Positions 2,988-62,902 of a stretch of 64,000 nt of DNA are shown in pieces. This DNA is from Eledone cirrhosa (taxonomy: Eukaryota), in the NCBI GenBank assembly GCA_964016885.1, contig OZ024755.1, positions 11,470,001 to 11,534,000 on the forward strand, in the 5' to 3' direction. The notes under the pieces are model-generated. The model searched no databases, was not told the origin of the DNA, and worked only from the letters and a program-made list of their open reading frames with translations. The first letter of the stretch is position 1. Each line of letters opens with the position of its first letter. The position numbers were made by a program, and so were the translations under genes.

Positions 2988-3128
2988 ATTACAGTTGTGT
3001 TTATAGCTTTCCATGTGTGTGCGAGGATTTCCACACCGATCCATGTATGCGTGTGTGTCCTTCCGTGCGTCCATAACTTTCCATGTGTGTTCGTCCATTA
3101 AATACAGATCTGTGTGTGTTTCTGAGTT

Positions 3129-3215
<87 letters not shown>

Positions 3216-3641
3216 CTTTCCATGTGTGTATGTGTTATTTTCATAGAGATCCATGTAGATGTGTGTATCTGATCATTTAGTTGTGTGTATGTTTGTATTT
3301 GTGTATCTGTTATAGCATTTTATGTATGAGCGAGAAATGCTACAGCGATCCATGTATGTGTGTTCGTTTAGTTTGTTCGGGTGTATGTTTGTAACTTTCC
3401 ATGTGTATGTGTATATCCATAGATCCATGTACATATATATATATGTGTGTGGGTGCGTGAGTGTGTACGTGTGTGTGTGTCTGTGTTCATATAATTTGTA
3501 TATGTTTATCGTTACATGTATATGTGTGTACACCCCATCCAAATCCATGTTGTGCGTGTGTGTTTGTGTGTTGGTGACTGACCAATCATTTGTGCGTGTG
3601 TAAGTTCCTATATATCCATGCCATTGTGTGTGTGTATCTTT

Positions 3642-3687
<46 letters not shown>

Positions 3688-3689
<2 letters not shown>

Positions 3690-3823
3690 CGAAGGAGGTT
3701 TGGTAAGGAGCCAGATGGACCATAACCCACCAGAGTACTCAATATTTAGGGTAGTAGAGTGGGTACGTCCAGAAATAGCTGTCGAAACGGCTTGAGCTCT
3801 GCCGTCGGGGTCTAACATTTTCC
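3688..3823. mobile_element. (TA)n-embedded element family A, internally inverted copy
   Basis: Shares AACGAAGG..GGACCATAAC..GTACTCAATA..GTAGAGTGGGTA and GAAACGGC..GCCGTCGGGG with the copies at 8.0-8.65, 19.1 and 61.1 kb. (TA)n on both sides. Confidence 0.8.
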
Positions 3824-4120
3824 TATATATATATATATATAAATTCAGCGAGAATCGCATTTCTGCGGGTACAAAAAGCGAAACGAAACGCAAAAATCAT
3901 AAATATGCTGGCAAGCGCTCTATAGTTAAAAAACCAGAGCTAAACAATATGTTAAAACTCCCATACAAAACTGAAAAAGTGGTCAAGAAAGCATCAACCA
4001 CCTAAGCCAAAAAGCAAATCAAGCTAAACAGGTCAAAACAAAATAATTGATAATATATATATATACTACCATGACTGAATCTTAACCATCTACTATGTCA
4101 GGGTATGTCATGCATTATCT

Positions 4121-4187
4121 TATTTTATCTGATGAGGACGTACTGTTGAAGTTAACTCAGTACCTCTGAAATATGTATAATAAAATA
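4121..4187 (+). ncRNA. Minimal type I hammerhead ribozyme
   Basis: Stem I TATTTTAT/ATAAAATA; CTGATGA 4129-4135; stem II GTACTG/CAGTAC with an imperfect base; GAAA 4168-4171; quasi-palindromic stem III ATATGTAT; AUA triplet. Stem I is nearly the same as in the 57-kb copy. Confidence 0.7.
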
Positions 4188-4231
4188 TACTTGATCACAA
4201 GAATATCTATTTTGTTAATATTTTGAATTAA

Positions 4232-4272
<41 letters not shown>

Positions 4273-5830
4273 CCGTATATGTTTGTCGGCTGAGAGAAAA
4301 AGGTACTCAATACCGAAGTAGAGTTTTAATATTCATTTTCGATGATCCTGTGATAAAACAGGCGAAACTCCATAGTAACAAGACTCACTATTTAGCTTTA
4401 ATAAAATGAGTATATTCGTATGTGTGTGTGTGCGTATACACACAGATAGAAATAGCAGTAAAATCTCCTCAAGATCACACCTTATGTCAATTAAAATTGA
4501 AAACATTTCTGAAAATACCTCTAGTATAATCTGCTACTGATTTCTACCAGACTGCGGTCAAGCTGGGGAAACTGACTTGAAGCGACTTACACAATCATAT
4601 CAACTCCATTGCTTATTTATTTCAACATTGATATTTATTTTATCTCTTTTTGTTCAGGCGTTTCCGTTGGTTAAAACACAGACATGTACGCAGGCACACA
4701 AATACATACATAGGTCAGATCATTTGGCATAACATTAAAAAGACCATTTATTCAGCTTGGAACTCTCCATACTCAAGGAAAGTATAATGCATATATTACT
4801 GTAAGATAAATAGGCCCTACGGTCAAGGTCAAACCTAAACAGATTCGATGGCGATAGATAGATAAATAGATAGAAAGACAGATATAAACGTTTCCCTTGT
4901 GTGTGTGTATGTGCGTCTGTCTGTGTTAGATGTAGAAATTTGTATAAGTAAATTTCTGGTGTATGCGTTTGTATGAGATGAGATTATGTGTGTGTGTGTT
5001 AGTTTTTTAATCCTTCGGTTATTGGCTCCCACGTGAAAACCACACCATCTCGTCCCTCAGCGAAACTTAACCTACAAGCCGCTATAACCATTACCACCAC
5101 TACCACTAACAAAAACATCATCATCATCATCACCACCACCACGACCAACAACACAGTCACCATCCGCACCATAACCATCACCAACACCATCTTCAGCCCC
5201 AATGCCACCAGCACCATGACTACCACCACAAAACGTGAATGACAAGAATCACAGCACGTGGATGGGTTTAGGTCGGGGTGTTTTGTTAGTATTGTTAAAC
5301 AAACATCGAAAAAGGGTCTGGAACATTCTCTTGACCCAGTTCTTGAGGAGATGAGTGCTATACCAAACTTCTTGGTATTTTTCTTTTTACTAACACCACA
5401 AACAACAAAAACATCGGCTGTTGTTATTGTTGGTGGTGGTGGTGTTGCTTATGTTAGTGACTATGTGGATGATGAAGCCACCGTCGATTTCGACGATGAA
5501 CATTCAGTTATCCGAATGAATAACTGAACATACGACTATATGTAAGTGGTTGAGTATTCCATAAGTAGCTCAAACCAGTTTGTGTAACATTGTGACAAAG
5601 TTGAACCTTTGAATTATCGGCTTAGTTAATCAGATTAGCTTCTAAACAGTTTCTATTCCCCCCCCCCCCATTTCATACCTAAGTCTTGGATTGACTCAAG
5701 TCTATCCTAACAACACTTGCTCAATATGCCACGTATTGGGACTGAACCCAGGATATCAGAATTGGGAAGGTATGTCTCTTTTGATAAAGGTATCCTTGAG
5801 ATTAAACGACATAATGCGCACGCATATATA

Positions 5831-56292: not shown

Positions 56293-56478
56293 CAGTATCG
56301 GTAGAGGGTCGGACGCCATGCTTTGACGTATAGAGTTACGGCCCTTGCCATTCTGAGTTCAAATCCCGCCGAAGTTAACTGTGCCTCCTTTCATTCTTAC
56401 GGGGTCGATAAAATAAAGTACCAGTAATGCACTGGGGTATTTGCTGGCCTTGTGCCAAAAGTAGAAACAATTATTATT
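56293..56478 (+). mobile_element. SINE family 1
   Basis: Matches the family consensus. Confidence 0.88.
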
Positions 56479-56667
56479 GCAACTACATAAATATCCTACA
56501 AGCATGAAACCGTATACACACACACATTGACAAAACATAGTGGGGGCTTAATATATACATACATACGCATAACTACAAACATATCTTTCTCTGTAGCTGA
56601 ATGATATATACCTACCTACCTACCCAGATATTCTAAACACACAGTCACATAGGCATAACTATCAGTT

Positions 56668-56723
<56 letters not shown>

Positions 56724-56888
56724 TATATATATATATAAATATATATAATATAAATATATATAATATAAATATATATAAATATATATAATATAAATATATA
56801 TAATATAAATATATATAATATAAATATATATAATATAAATATATATAAATATATATAATATAAGATCAAAAGATGGTTAAAGGAGTTC

Positions 56889-56973
56889 CATGTATTTTAT
56901 TATGCGCATTTCAAAAACAAACATCATCATGCAATAATATTTGTGTTTTCATCAGATAAAACAGGAGAACATG
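56889..56973 (-). ncRNA. Minimal type I hammerhead ribozyme (left arm of palindrome)
   Basis: Reverse complement of 57093-57177. Confidence 0.8.
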
Positions 56974-57092
56974 ATATGAAGGCTAAAAAACACTTGTGGA
57001 TAGTGCAGTTTTAAATCAACATTTATGTTTTAAATCACCTGATATGTTGATTTAAAACTGCACTATCCACAAGTGTTTTTTAGCCTTCATAT

Positions 57093-57177
57093 CATGTTCT
57101 CCTGTTTTATCTGATGAAAACACAAATATTATTGCATGATGATGTTTGTTTTTGAAATGCGCATAATAAAATACATG
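57093..57177 (+). ncRNA. Minimal type I hammerhead ribozyme (right arm of palindrome)
   Basis: Stem I TGTTTTAT/ATAAAATA plus CATG/CATG beyond a bulge. CTGATGA 57111-57117; long stem II CAAATATTAT/ATGATGTTTG; GAAA 57154-57157; palindromic stem III ATGCGCAT; AUA triplet. Confidence 0.8.
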
Positions 57178-58164
57178 GAACTCCTTTAACCATCTTTTGA
57201 TCTTATATTATGTATACTCCAGTCCTACAAACTGTAGAGTGCTTCTTATCCGATATCTGCATTGCTTTATTGTACTACAATAAAACTCACCTCCTACATA
57301 TAAATATATATATATATATGCATACACATACACACAAACTGATAGTTATGCCTTTTACAACATAGACGATATATACAGGCCTACTACATACATAGTGGCG
57401 AATAAGTTTACGTTAACACCCACACAAACTAACATTCACACCTTAACAACACAGGCATCAACACCTTTACAACACATTACATATATTCACACACAAATAC
57501 CTTCCTTCGACACCACCACCACCATCATACACACTCACACACGGTGTGACTGACATCTTCACAACATTACTATGTACACACTTTGTAAGACAAGACTGAC
57601 ACCTTCACAAGATAATACTATACACATTCATAGATACATACATAGTCAAACTGACATTCATAGCTTTTCAGCATATATTTATATATGTATATCTATACCT
57701 CCATACACACCCGCACGTGCAAGTAACAGATGGGAGGTTGTTGCCGTATTACTAGATAGAAATACTACAACTTATCGTCCCGGGACATGTGATATACCAA
57801 CTTACTACTGTTACTACTACTGTTACAACTACTATTACTACAATTAGTAATGTGTACTGCTATTAGTCTTAGTCGTTACTACATGTGTGCTTTAATTGAT
57901 AGCAGCACCAATACCTCCACCAGTACATTTACTATTACTGCTACCACCAGTTTCATGTATTGGAGGGTCCGAGAAACGATAGACACGTGCGTTCTCTCAT
58001 GTATGTATGATATATATATATATAAATATATATATATATGTGTGTGTGAGGGAGGGAGAATAAGCGTATATATATATATATGAAAACATATACAATCATT
58101 ATGTATAATAAATACACACAAACATACATAAGTCTCGCTGTGAATATTTAAAGATGTGATCATG

Positions 58165-59352: not shown

Positions 59353-59580
59353 TTGGCCGGCGTAAGTACGGTAACAACAACAATATGTGTTTGTTAAAAG
59401 CTGGCAGTGGAAGTAAATGAAAAAATATCAATAATAATACGCGAGAGAGAAAGAAAAATTAGGTACTATGATAAGAAAAAACAGTGAAAGAACGAAAGAA
59501 GACAGGCGTTTTTTAATCTTTCTATTTCGCTGTCCGGTGTAAAAGGAAAAATGGTCCTTCTCTGTCCCGAGAAAACTTAC

Positions 59581-59728
59581 CTGATCCAGTAATGAGTACA
59601 GTCTCCCCTGAAACATCCTTGGCATAGAAAGATCCTGGTAGGATGGCCCGTATAATTCCTTCCAGTAGGTAATAAAAAAAGGCCAAAATTGTTAGAATAA
59701 TTTCCTTTACGAAATCCCAGTCGACCAT
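59581..59728 (-). CDS. First coding exon of a short-chain dehydrogenase/reductase, SDR16C family (RDH10 / SDR16C5 / HSD17B11-like)
   Basis: Translates MVDWDFVKEIILTILAFFYYLLEGIIRAILPGSFYAKDVSGETVLITGS(G). It has an N-terminal hydrophobic anchor and KxVxGExVLITG leading into the Rossmann TGxxxGxG motif. Start context is ACGATGG, and a canonical phase-1 donor TCAG|GTAAGT follows 59581. Confidence 0.9.
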
Positions 59729-61290: not shown

Positions 61291-62201
61291 TATATATAAG
61301 TTCTCCCAAAAGGTATTAATAAACGCGAGTCTATAGTATCGAAGACACTTACCAGGCAATGCGATCAAGTACGAATATATACTCGTTTTTTTTTGTGTGA
61401 TTTTGTAAGAAGTAAAAAAAAATAATAAAAAGATTAATAAAAGGTAAATTAAGCTACCAGCGAGTCGTGGTCTACTATTGTATTTGTGACTCGGTTTCGG
61501 TCCCAGTTTGGATCTAGTTCAAACTTACTCGAGAAAAAACAAACTTTTTAACCATCCCTTCATAAAATTCACGCTGTCCCCACCTACCCTAATATGTTTA
61601 ATCAGTGAAATAACAGACAGCGTTCAGTTTTTTTTAAGGAATGGATGGTGAAATGAAAAGAGAGGAAATAATTTAGATTACTAATTTTTAAAATAATATT
61701 ATTACTTAATTAATTAAATTAATTAAATATGTAACCGGCAAATATATATAGGTTAATGTGTTAGTGGAGCTTTCTCCGACACAATGAACCAGTTGTACTT
61801 GAAAATTTGAAATTGAACCAATATCGATTAATAACGTTTCTTTTTCTTTTCTTTCTTTTCAACAGTATTGGCACGAAGCTACGATATTCCATGTAGTTAT
61901 GTGTCAGTAATATTATTAGTACTAGTGATGGACCTTCGTCGGTAACGACGATAAGTGTTCAACATCCTTAATTTAGTTCTCGGGAAGAGTCAACATGACA
62001 CAGTGTGTGTGGTGGGGATAAGGTTGACCGTTTGAATTACGTATAGTCCACTCGACGGGCTTCGAAGTGTTTTCCGCCTACCAAATTCCATTCACAAGGC
62101 TGGTAAATGACCCCCCCCCCCACACACACACACTGTATCGTCCTCTTTAATGTCACCTTAATATGAGCCCCGTGTGGCTAATAAAGAAAATATTATTAAT
62201 A

Positions 62202-62902
62202 ATAATTGTTTCTACTTTTGGCACAAGGCCAGCAAATATCCAGTGTATTACTGGTACTTTATTTTATCGACCCCGTAAGGATGAAAGGCAAAGTTAACCT
62301 CGGCGGGATTTATTATTATTAATAATAATAAAAATAATAAGGTTAGTTAAAAAAATATTAGACCAGCCCCCTTTTTTGGAACACCCCAAAAGCCATACCT
62401 ACTGGGAACAGCAAGGGACCCTCCGATACGTCCTGAATTTGAGGCTGCAGGTAGCGGCTTGATGCTCATTAGGGAACAGTTTCCGTTTAAATAACATCTA
62501 TGACTGAGATATCAAAGTAATAATTGTTTCTACATTTGGCACAAGGCCAGCCATTACCCAGTACATTACTGGTACTTTATTTTATCGACCCCGTAAAGGA
62601 TGAAAGGCAAAGTTAACCTCGGCGGGATTTGAACTCAGAATGGCAAGGGCCGTAACTATATACGTCAAAGCATGGCGTCCGACCCTCTACCGATACTGCT
62701 GATTTCTAGTATAGGCACAAGGGACAGTAATTTGGAGGGAGACAAAGACGATTAAATCGACCCCAGTGCGCTACTGGTACTTTATTTTATCGGACCCCGT
62801 AAGGATGAAAGGCAAAGTTAAACTCGGCGGGATTTGAACTCAGAACGTAAAGGACCGTAACTCTATGCTGCAAAGCATTGTGTCTAACGCTCAATAATAC
62901 TG
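62202..62902 (-). mobile_element. SINE family 1 cluster (three copies)
   Basis: Reverse complement of the family consensus. Confidence 0.85.

What the first reader, a model, noticed from the sequence alone, without database searches (positions are those of the whole stretch)
56855..57211. Near-perfect 357-bp palindrome holding an intact hammerhead on each strand, 2.4 kb into the SDR intron
Seen: 168-bp arms each contain a full CTGATGA..GAAA core with palindromic stem III ATGCGCAT. The spacer repeats TTTTAAATCA from the arm end, which looks like a template-switch scar. The left-arm ribozyme is sense to the SDR pre-mRNA. In either transcription direction the antisense arm is made before the ribozyme. 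Inference: the ribozyme is self-sequestered in a long dsRNA, which could also be an ADAR or Dicer substrate.
Basis: partly seen in the sequence, partly recalled or inferred. Interest (0 to 1): 0.75.

Follow-up and report, generated by a model that had tools for sequence, protein, structure and literature searches.

The report
Mirror-image stump of Penelope retrotransposon
This mirror-image DNA is one of many short stumps of a very abundant Penelope-like jumping gene; it was likely made on the spot by copying the start of the element's RNA onto both cut ends of the DNA, so its two ribozyme motifs are likely passengers, not a control switch for the host gene.

Summary
The palindrome is real: 168/168-bp arms, each with a type I hammerhead motif, in the ~204-kb first intron of an SDR gene. 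It is not a one-off. The arm is the end (pLTR) of a Hydra-clade Penelope-like element with 14,874 exact hammerhead 21-mers in this genome and an intact 800-aa RT/endonuclease ORF in a sister copy. Head-to-head copies are the rule: 52 of 57 sampled pairs carry the tail on exactly one arm, and 842 sites have a perfect centre. About 6,400 arms start at one base (window 57042), often behind an extra G (44 of 100 listed), the mark of a copied mRNA cap. Best reading: both cut DNA ends primed reverse transcription from two fixed sites to the capped 5' end, and the two copies were joined. Sequestration in the pre-mRNA is predicted but is a by-product of this geometry; ribozyme activity, expression and editing are untested. 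The architecture is published. This scan reached the twin-priming reading before on other DNA; I did not find the cap-G evidence in print.

The parts
56675..56854 (.). (TA)n target, left side, partly expanded as a 15-nt TA-rich unit
   Evidence: 41 of 41 sister insertions have (TA)n on at least one side, 38 on both
56855..57022 (-). Left arm: inverted pLTR end without tail (positions 3476-3643 of reference copy L032:1317-5047)
56893..56963 (-). Type I hammerhead motif, sense to the SDR pre-mRNA; core starts 56955, predicted cut after 56901
   Evidence: activity untested
57023..57040 (.). Junction insert, unique in the genome; holds an 11-nt copy of the arm end
   Evidence: (1 match)
57041..57041 (+). 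Extra G where the full element has C; inferred copy of the mRNA cap
57042..57211 (+). Right arm: pLTR end from the family's fixed 5' start (ref A3474) to 3643
57103..57173 (+). Type I hammerhead motif; core 57111, predicted cut after 57165; palindromic stem III (dimer type)
57212..57299 (+). 88-nt tail, on one arm only; in tandem copies it runs on into the 5' UTR and ORF
   Evidence: L035, L044, L066, L067; 10,703 exact 27-mers
57300..57318 (.). (TA)n target, right side
56651..56674 (+). Left copy of a 24-nt host inverted repeat around the insertion (right copy 57330-57353); found only here
59581..59728 (-). First coding exon of the SDR16C-like host gene; donor GTAAGT at 59580

Best explanation
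The palindrome is a short head-to-head insertion of the pLTR end of an abundant Hydra-clade Penelope-like retrotransposon, likely made at this site by twin priming on the element's capped RNA. Shown: family identity, copy number, (TA)n target, two fixed outer ends (with and without tail), one fixed inner start, variable centres. Inferred steps: (1) the element is transcribed by Pol II from ref A3474 and capped; (2) its protein nicks both strands of a (TA)n tract; (3) each 3' end primes reverse transcription, one at the pLTR end and one at the tail end; (4) on the 5' pLTR both run off at the cap and often add a C, which reads as the extra G; (5) the two cDNA ends are joined through the self-complementary ATAT or with a short templated insert, as here. 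The hammerheads ride along. In host pre-mRNA they would be zipped into a 168-bp hairpin and would also lack a dimer partner, so they are predicted not to cut.
For: Family: 14,874 exact hammerhead 21-mers. The arm is the 3' end of copies with an 800-aa ORF bearing RW, DKT, YRDD, CxCx5C, CxxC/CxH and no CCHH, the Hydra diagnostics of PMC8557442 section 11. Tail on exactly one arm in 52 of 57 pairs (3 both, 2 neither; p 6e-11). Fixed start: 4,746 arms with a non-template base before A3474, plus 842 perfect centres (2 arms each), against 4,580 read-through arms; 30 of 30 inspected were true junctions. Extra base G in 44 of the 100 listed (T 39, A 17; hand count; p 2e-7 against 0.21, p 0.026 against 1/3). 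In fetched loci, G in 12 of 21 junctions at 3474 against 0 of 17 elsewhere. An extra G is the cap signature of full-length L1 insertions (PMC11702581). The tail-less arm reaches further 5' than the tailed arm in 22 of 52 pairs, by over 800 nt in 14, with no overlap in 5. Short and long copies share at least 5 haplotypes. In vitro, a PLE protein nicks and extends both strands and starts at two sites that bound the tail (PMC11167929).
Against: No RNA data: start site, cap, cleavage and expression are inferred. Both arms nearly always share a haplotype (44 of 49 pairs differ at <=1 of 14 sites, against 14% of random pairs), which fits fold-back or gene conversion equally well. 23 of 116 rarer variants are shared by both arms. 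Central deletions in palindromes could mimic some asymmetry. T is almost as common as G before A3474. No TATA or promoter was tested. 5 of 57 pairs break the one-tail rule. The pair sample comes from the first 43 Mb of one contig.
Confidence: 0.75

Rival explanations
1. Same element, but the second arm arises by fold-back (snap-back) self-priming of one cDNA or of an antisense template, as proposed for Penelope in Adineta.
For: Arms share haplotypes (44 of 49); 842 perfect centres on a self-complementary word; the window's 11-nt insert looks like a short snap-back, as seen for R2 (PMC11371274); proposed in PMC3846280 Discussion.
Against: A copy cannot hold sequence that its template lacks, yet the tail is on one arm while the other reaches further 5' in 22 of 52 pairs, 5 without overlap. 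Both outer ends are fixed and abut (TA)n. The extra G points to a capped sense template.
Confidence: 0.15
2. A MITE-like or SINE-like palindromic element that copies itself as a whole unit.
For: About half of sampled pairs are short (31 of 57, my count) and of similar size; 842 share one centre.
Against: Centres vary from copy to copy and this one is unique; the tail side switches (30 vs 22); short copies fall in the same haplotypes as long ORF-bearing copies.
Confidence: 0.05
3. One reading: a host-relevant, self-sequestered ribozyme or dsRNA switch in the SDR intron.
For: Predicted full pairing of the core in pre-mRNA; intronic and sense orientation confirmed; palindromic repeats and lizard Penelope elements are known hyper-editing targets (PMC5625713).
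Against: One copy per ~200 kb genome-wide matches one copy in this 204-kb intron; arms are identical and of the haplotype of the ORF-intact copy, so it is very young; other sense hammerhead motifs sit in the same intron.
Confidence: 0.03
4. Assembly artefact (a fold-back chimera).
For: Perfect arms; this centre was not bridged in the four contig sets laid.
Against: Hundreds to thousands of such loci with orderly, one-sided tails and arms that differ by age; public contigs show many head-to-head joints of the family.
Confidence: 0.02

Closest known systems
Hydra clade of EN+ Penelope-like elements, e.g. Hydra-1_Obim (Craig et al. 2021, PMC8557442; section 11 and supplement rows seen)
   Same: Single ORF with RT and C-terminal GIY-YIG-like endonuclease; RW, DKT, CxCx5C, CxxC/CxH, no CCHH; hammerhead in the pLTR; (TA)n target. 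DKTNNLY is shared with Hydra-1_Obim.
   Different: A different family: its hammerhead and linker words were absent from the supplement and the proteins differ widely by eye (not aligned by a tool). Unit ~3.7 kb rather than <3 kb, tail 88 nt rather than 30-40, and an Asn-rich stretch of ~80 aa before the linker.
Inverted pLTR plus one-sided tail of Penelope insertions (PMC3846280; PMC8557442 Fig. 2 legend)
   Same: Head-to-head inverted 5'-truncated copy, palindrome at the junction, tail at one end.
   Different: Here the commonest product is a minimal form in which both arms stop at one base, often with an extra G; those papers favour self-priming or leave the mechanism open.
Minimal / palindromic-helix-III hammerheads of metazoan PLEs (Cervera and de la Pena 2014, PMC4209133)
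   Same: Type I motif, long helix II, short helix I, palindromic helix III; that paper already reports dual motifs 100-700 bp apart on opposite strands and low activity needing dimers.
   Different: A10.1-U11.1 instead of the usual G-C; no sign that the cut site defines copy ends.
LINE-1 twin priming with 5' inversion and cap-derived extra G (PMC11702581 passages)
   Same: Two primed DNA ends, inverted cDNAs joined by end joining, extra G at full-length 5' ends.
   Different: L1 arms cover different parts of the RNA; here they overlap and start at two fixed sites 88 nt apart.

Membership tests
Hydra-clade Penelope-like element | Single ORF with RT and C-terminal endonuclease | tested here: met
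   800-aa ORF in L032 with FDIAS/TMGAS/YRDD/FLDV and LIY-x12-YFG; Pfam gave no hit, so this rests on motifs and on visible homology to the Hydra proteins
Hydra-clade Penelope-like element | RWK motif and DKT in place of DKG | tested here: met
   DKT at aa 123; RW at aa 37-38 but followed by T or I, not K
Hydra-clade Penelope-like element | CxCx5C linker, no CCHH, CxxC and CxH around E/N | tested here: met
   CNCRIKNKC aa 659, CNLC aa 759, CLH aa 787; one Cys only between LIY and YFG
Hydra-clade Penelope-like element | Hammerhead in pLTR and (TA)n target | tested here: met
Hydra-clade Penelope-like element | Length under 3 kb (generally) | tested here: not met
   unit is ~3.7 kb; the paper gives this as a tendency
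Hydra-clade Penelope-like element | Placement in the RT phylogeny | not tested
   reference proteins lie only in a paper supplement and were not entered into tools
EN+ PLE insertion architecture | Inverted 5'-truncated copy and tail at one end | tested here: met
   52 of 57 pairs; window copy included separately
Type I hammerhead ribozyme | Conserved core and three helices | tested here: met
   core intact in 80 of 86 arms not selected on it; common stem variants keep pairing (AT/GT, TA/TG, TG/CG), none lies in the core, no two-sided change
Type I hammerhead ribozyme | Match to an Rfam hammerhead model | tested here: not met
   no hammerhead family at gathering score or E<=10
Type I hammerhead ribozyme | Self-cleavage | not testable with these tools
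   needs an in vitro assay
MITE | Copies move as a unit with shared internal sequence | tested here: not met
   centres differ, this one is unique, haplotypes are shared with long copies
Non-LTR retrozyme | Tandem head-to-tail hammerhead repeats | tested here: not met
   arms are head-to-head and single

The most novel reading that the evidence does not exclude
Thousands of these stumps are a genomic record of an unresolved step of Penelope transposition: a capped, uncleaved, sense RNA is copied twice, from two fixed internal sites to the cap, on both ends of one cut ('double strong-stop'), which rules out antisense self-priming and ribozyme-cut templates for this product. If the promoter is internal, each stump could be transcribed outward from its centre, escape its own hairpin and seed new palindromes, while read-through turns thousands of introns into perfect ~170-bp dsRNA.
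Probability: 0.4. Interest if true: 0.62.

Novelty: new member of a known kind. Interest (0 to 1): 0.38.

Why it matters
This one locus is ordinary. The family matters because the origin of inverted Penelope insertions is called open in PMC8557442, and here a fixed inner start with an extra G names a base to test (window 57042) and argues for a capped sense template. It also predicts roughly 3,000-4,600 near-perfect hairpins in this genome (my extrapolation), a possible large source of dsRNA for editing or silencing.

Tried and rejected
Rfam: no hammerhead hit; the miRNA hits are below gathering score and reflect the hairpin. A DNA search of the own genome returned nothing, not even the window, because common words are skipped. 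Pfam found nothing for the element ORF, two homologs or the SDR exon (the exon query was in the wrong frame). Ribozyme cut site as a copy boundary: 221 sites with a non-template base before it against 4,746 at A3474, and only 13 of 30 inspected were junction-like; no hotspot. Telomerase-like stutter as the source of the left 15-nt repeat: 0 of 40 other tail-less ends show it. Outer inverted repeat as a family feature or TSD: unique to this locus; 2 of 41 loci have any inverted flank match, 1 of 41 a direct one. Sequencing runs: no RNA holder listed. The centre of this copy was not covered in 4 contig sets, which shows nothing either way. A direct genome-wide count of short pairs was not obtained; the number is an extrapolation. 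Literature searches with no relevant paper on twin priming, strong-stop or cap copying in Penelope elements: (open-access library only); one search found no octopus-specific hammerhead study beyond PMC8557442.

Full report
Observation. The palindrome is as described. Arms 56855-57022 and 57044-57211 are perfect reverse complements around a 21-nt spacer. Each arm holds a type I hammerhead motif with predicted cuts after 57165 (+) and 56901 (-). As a monomer, stem III has only 2 bp; the 8-nt palindrome pairs between two copies at -10.5 kcal/mol. Rfam has no matching hammerhead model. The host exon at 59581-59728 (-) resembles the start of HSD17B13 (E 0.05-0.11). The exon that continues its GxGxG motif lies ~204 kb away, followed by further SDR exons. 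The left-arm motif is therefore sense to the pre-mRNA.

What it is. An exact 21-mer across the hammerhead core occurs 14,874 times in the 3.0-Gb genome. I fetched stretches around the listed hits from the first 43 Mb of contig C1. Long copies show that the arm is the 3' end of a ~3.7-kb unit with one ORF; L032 has an open 800-aa frame, and a 20-mer at the RT active site occurs 995 times. Pfam does not recognise the protein. Its motifs match the Hydra-clade diagnostics in PMC8557442 section 11: RW, DKT, CxCx5C, CxxC and CxH, no CCHH. It is visibly homologous to, but distinct from, Hydra-1_Obim in that paper's supplement (judged by eye). 18 unnamed homologs of 29-38% identity were found among 7,995 candidates scored. 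The host is probably an octopod; this is a guess from a recalled SINE likeness and was not tested.

The element continues to 57299 as an 88-nt tail on the right arm only, and both ends abut (TA)n. The tail 27-mer occurs 10,703 times. Of 57 head-to-head pairs sampled, 52 have the tail on exactly one arm, 3 on both and 2 on neither (p 6e-11). 31 of the 57 are short forms like this one (my count). 41 of 41 insertions whose two ends could be located have (TA)n on at least one side (47 loci were given). This layout is published for Penelope-like elements (PMC8557442 Fig. 2 legend; PMC3846280), and dual hammerheads 100-700 bp apart on opposite strands are in PMC4209133.

The fixed inner start. 45 of 128 sampled arms begin within ref 3470-3479. 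Genome-wide, 4,746 arms have a non-template base just before A3474 and 842 sites have a perfect palindromic centre there, against 4,580 read-through arms. All 30 inspected were true junctions. The extra base is G in 44 of the 100 listed, T in 39 and A in 17 (hand count). That is p 2e-7 against 0.21, about the share expected from base composition, but only p 0.026 against one third. In fetched loci, 12 of 21 junctions at 3474 have G against 0 of 17 at other positions. The window copy has this G at 57041. An extra G marks copying of the mRNA cap in L1 (PMC11702581). I infer that A3474 is the capped transcription start. The perfect centres follow if two cDNA ends anneal through their ATAT. The ribozyme cut site is no such boundary: 221 sites, 13 of 30 junction-like. 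This agrees with the in vitro finding that cleavage is not needed for insertion (PMC11167929).

Twin priming or fold-back. The two arms of an insertion share a haplotype: 44 of 49 pairs differ at no more than 1 of 14 diagnostic sites, against 14% of random pairs (pairs with under 100 shared positions were dropped). This fits either model. But a fold-back copy cannot contain what its template lacks. In 22 of 52 one-tail pairs the tail-less arm reaches further 5', in 14 by over 800 nt, and in 5 the arms do not overlap; 20 are equal and 10 have the tailed arm longer (one duplicate row and 5 both-or-neither rows set aside). Central deletion could explain some of this. A purified PLE protein nicks and extends both strands and starts at two sites that bound the tail, which fits the two fixed outer ends. 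Short and long copies share at least five haplotypes, centres vary, and this centre is unique, so the stumps are made afresh rather than copied as a MITE. Whether one RNA or two sister RNAs serve as template is not resolved.

The ribozyme. The core is intact in 80 of 86 arms not selected on it. Common variants fall in loops or keep pairing, with no two-sided changes; variants in the core are 7 of 946 letters against 121 of 7,138 outside it. This points to selection on the element's RNA. It follows from the insertion geometry. One copy in a 204-kb intron is the genome average, the arms are identical and of the same haplotype as the ORF-intact copy, and the intron holds 10 hammerhead-like motifs, 5 of them sense. 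Palindromic repeats and lizard Penelope elements are known hyper-editing targets (PMC5625713), so editing here is plausible. It could not be tested.

Novelty. The architecture, the hammerheads and the clade are known; this family was not found in the one supplement checked. Three searches found no paper on twin priming, strong-stop or cap copying in Penelope elements (open-access library only). Earlier notes of this scan reached the twin-priming reading on other genomes and on other repeats of this genome. I had noted that reading before seeing them; they are not independent support, and the excerpts shown did not mention an extra G.

Papers seen. PMC8557442: abstract, passages, section 11 whole, supplement searches. 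PMC11167929 and PMC4209133: parts 1-2 of 4 (main text). PMC3846280: passages and Discussion. PMC5625713, PMC11702581, PMC11371274 and bioRxiv 10.64898/2026.07.22.740005: passages only. Supplements other than that of PMC8557442 were not read and could list this family. Hammerhead numbering, the usual G10.1-C11.1 pair and the SDR motifs used as regexes are partly recalled.

Noticed in passing
window 4121-4187 (+): Hammerhead motif of a second, unrelated family (core 4129, stem III ATATGTAT) near the end of a ~550-bp insert in (TA)n; its core 20-mer occurs 6,830 times in the genome.
   Followed up: partly
window 52106 (+); G000:C15:11443337 and 11442845 (-): Third hammerhead family (stem III ACTAGT); two copies 492 bp apart in tandem and sense to the SDR pre-mRNA, retrozyme-like and a better candidate for dimer cleavage of the host intron than the palindrome.
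   Followed up: no
G000:C15:11372628 (-) and 11372976 (+): Another head-to-head hammerhead pair, 348 bp apart, of a further family in the same intron.
   Followed up: no
window 56651-56674 and 57330-57353: 24-nt host sequence duplicated in inverted orientation on both sides of the insertion, unique in the genome; origin unexplained. L045 shows a similar inverted flank match.
   Followed up: partly
window 56725-56854: About seven copies of a 15-nt TA-rich unit that contains the arm's terminal 9 nt; not seen at 40 other tail-less ends.
   Followed up: partly
L032:1392-3791, aa ~590-655: Asn-rich stretch of ~80 aa absent from homolog P0003, recalling the N-rich inserts of Adineta Penelope ORFs (PMC3846280).
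   Followed up: no
window 59580 to G000:C15:~11325340: SDR16C-like gene with a first intron of ~204 kb.
   Followed up: partly
window 62200-62900, 56400-56470: Several copies of a dispersed SINE-like repeat; likeness to octopus SINEs is recalled, not tested.
   Followed up: no
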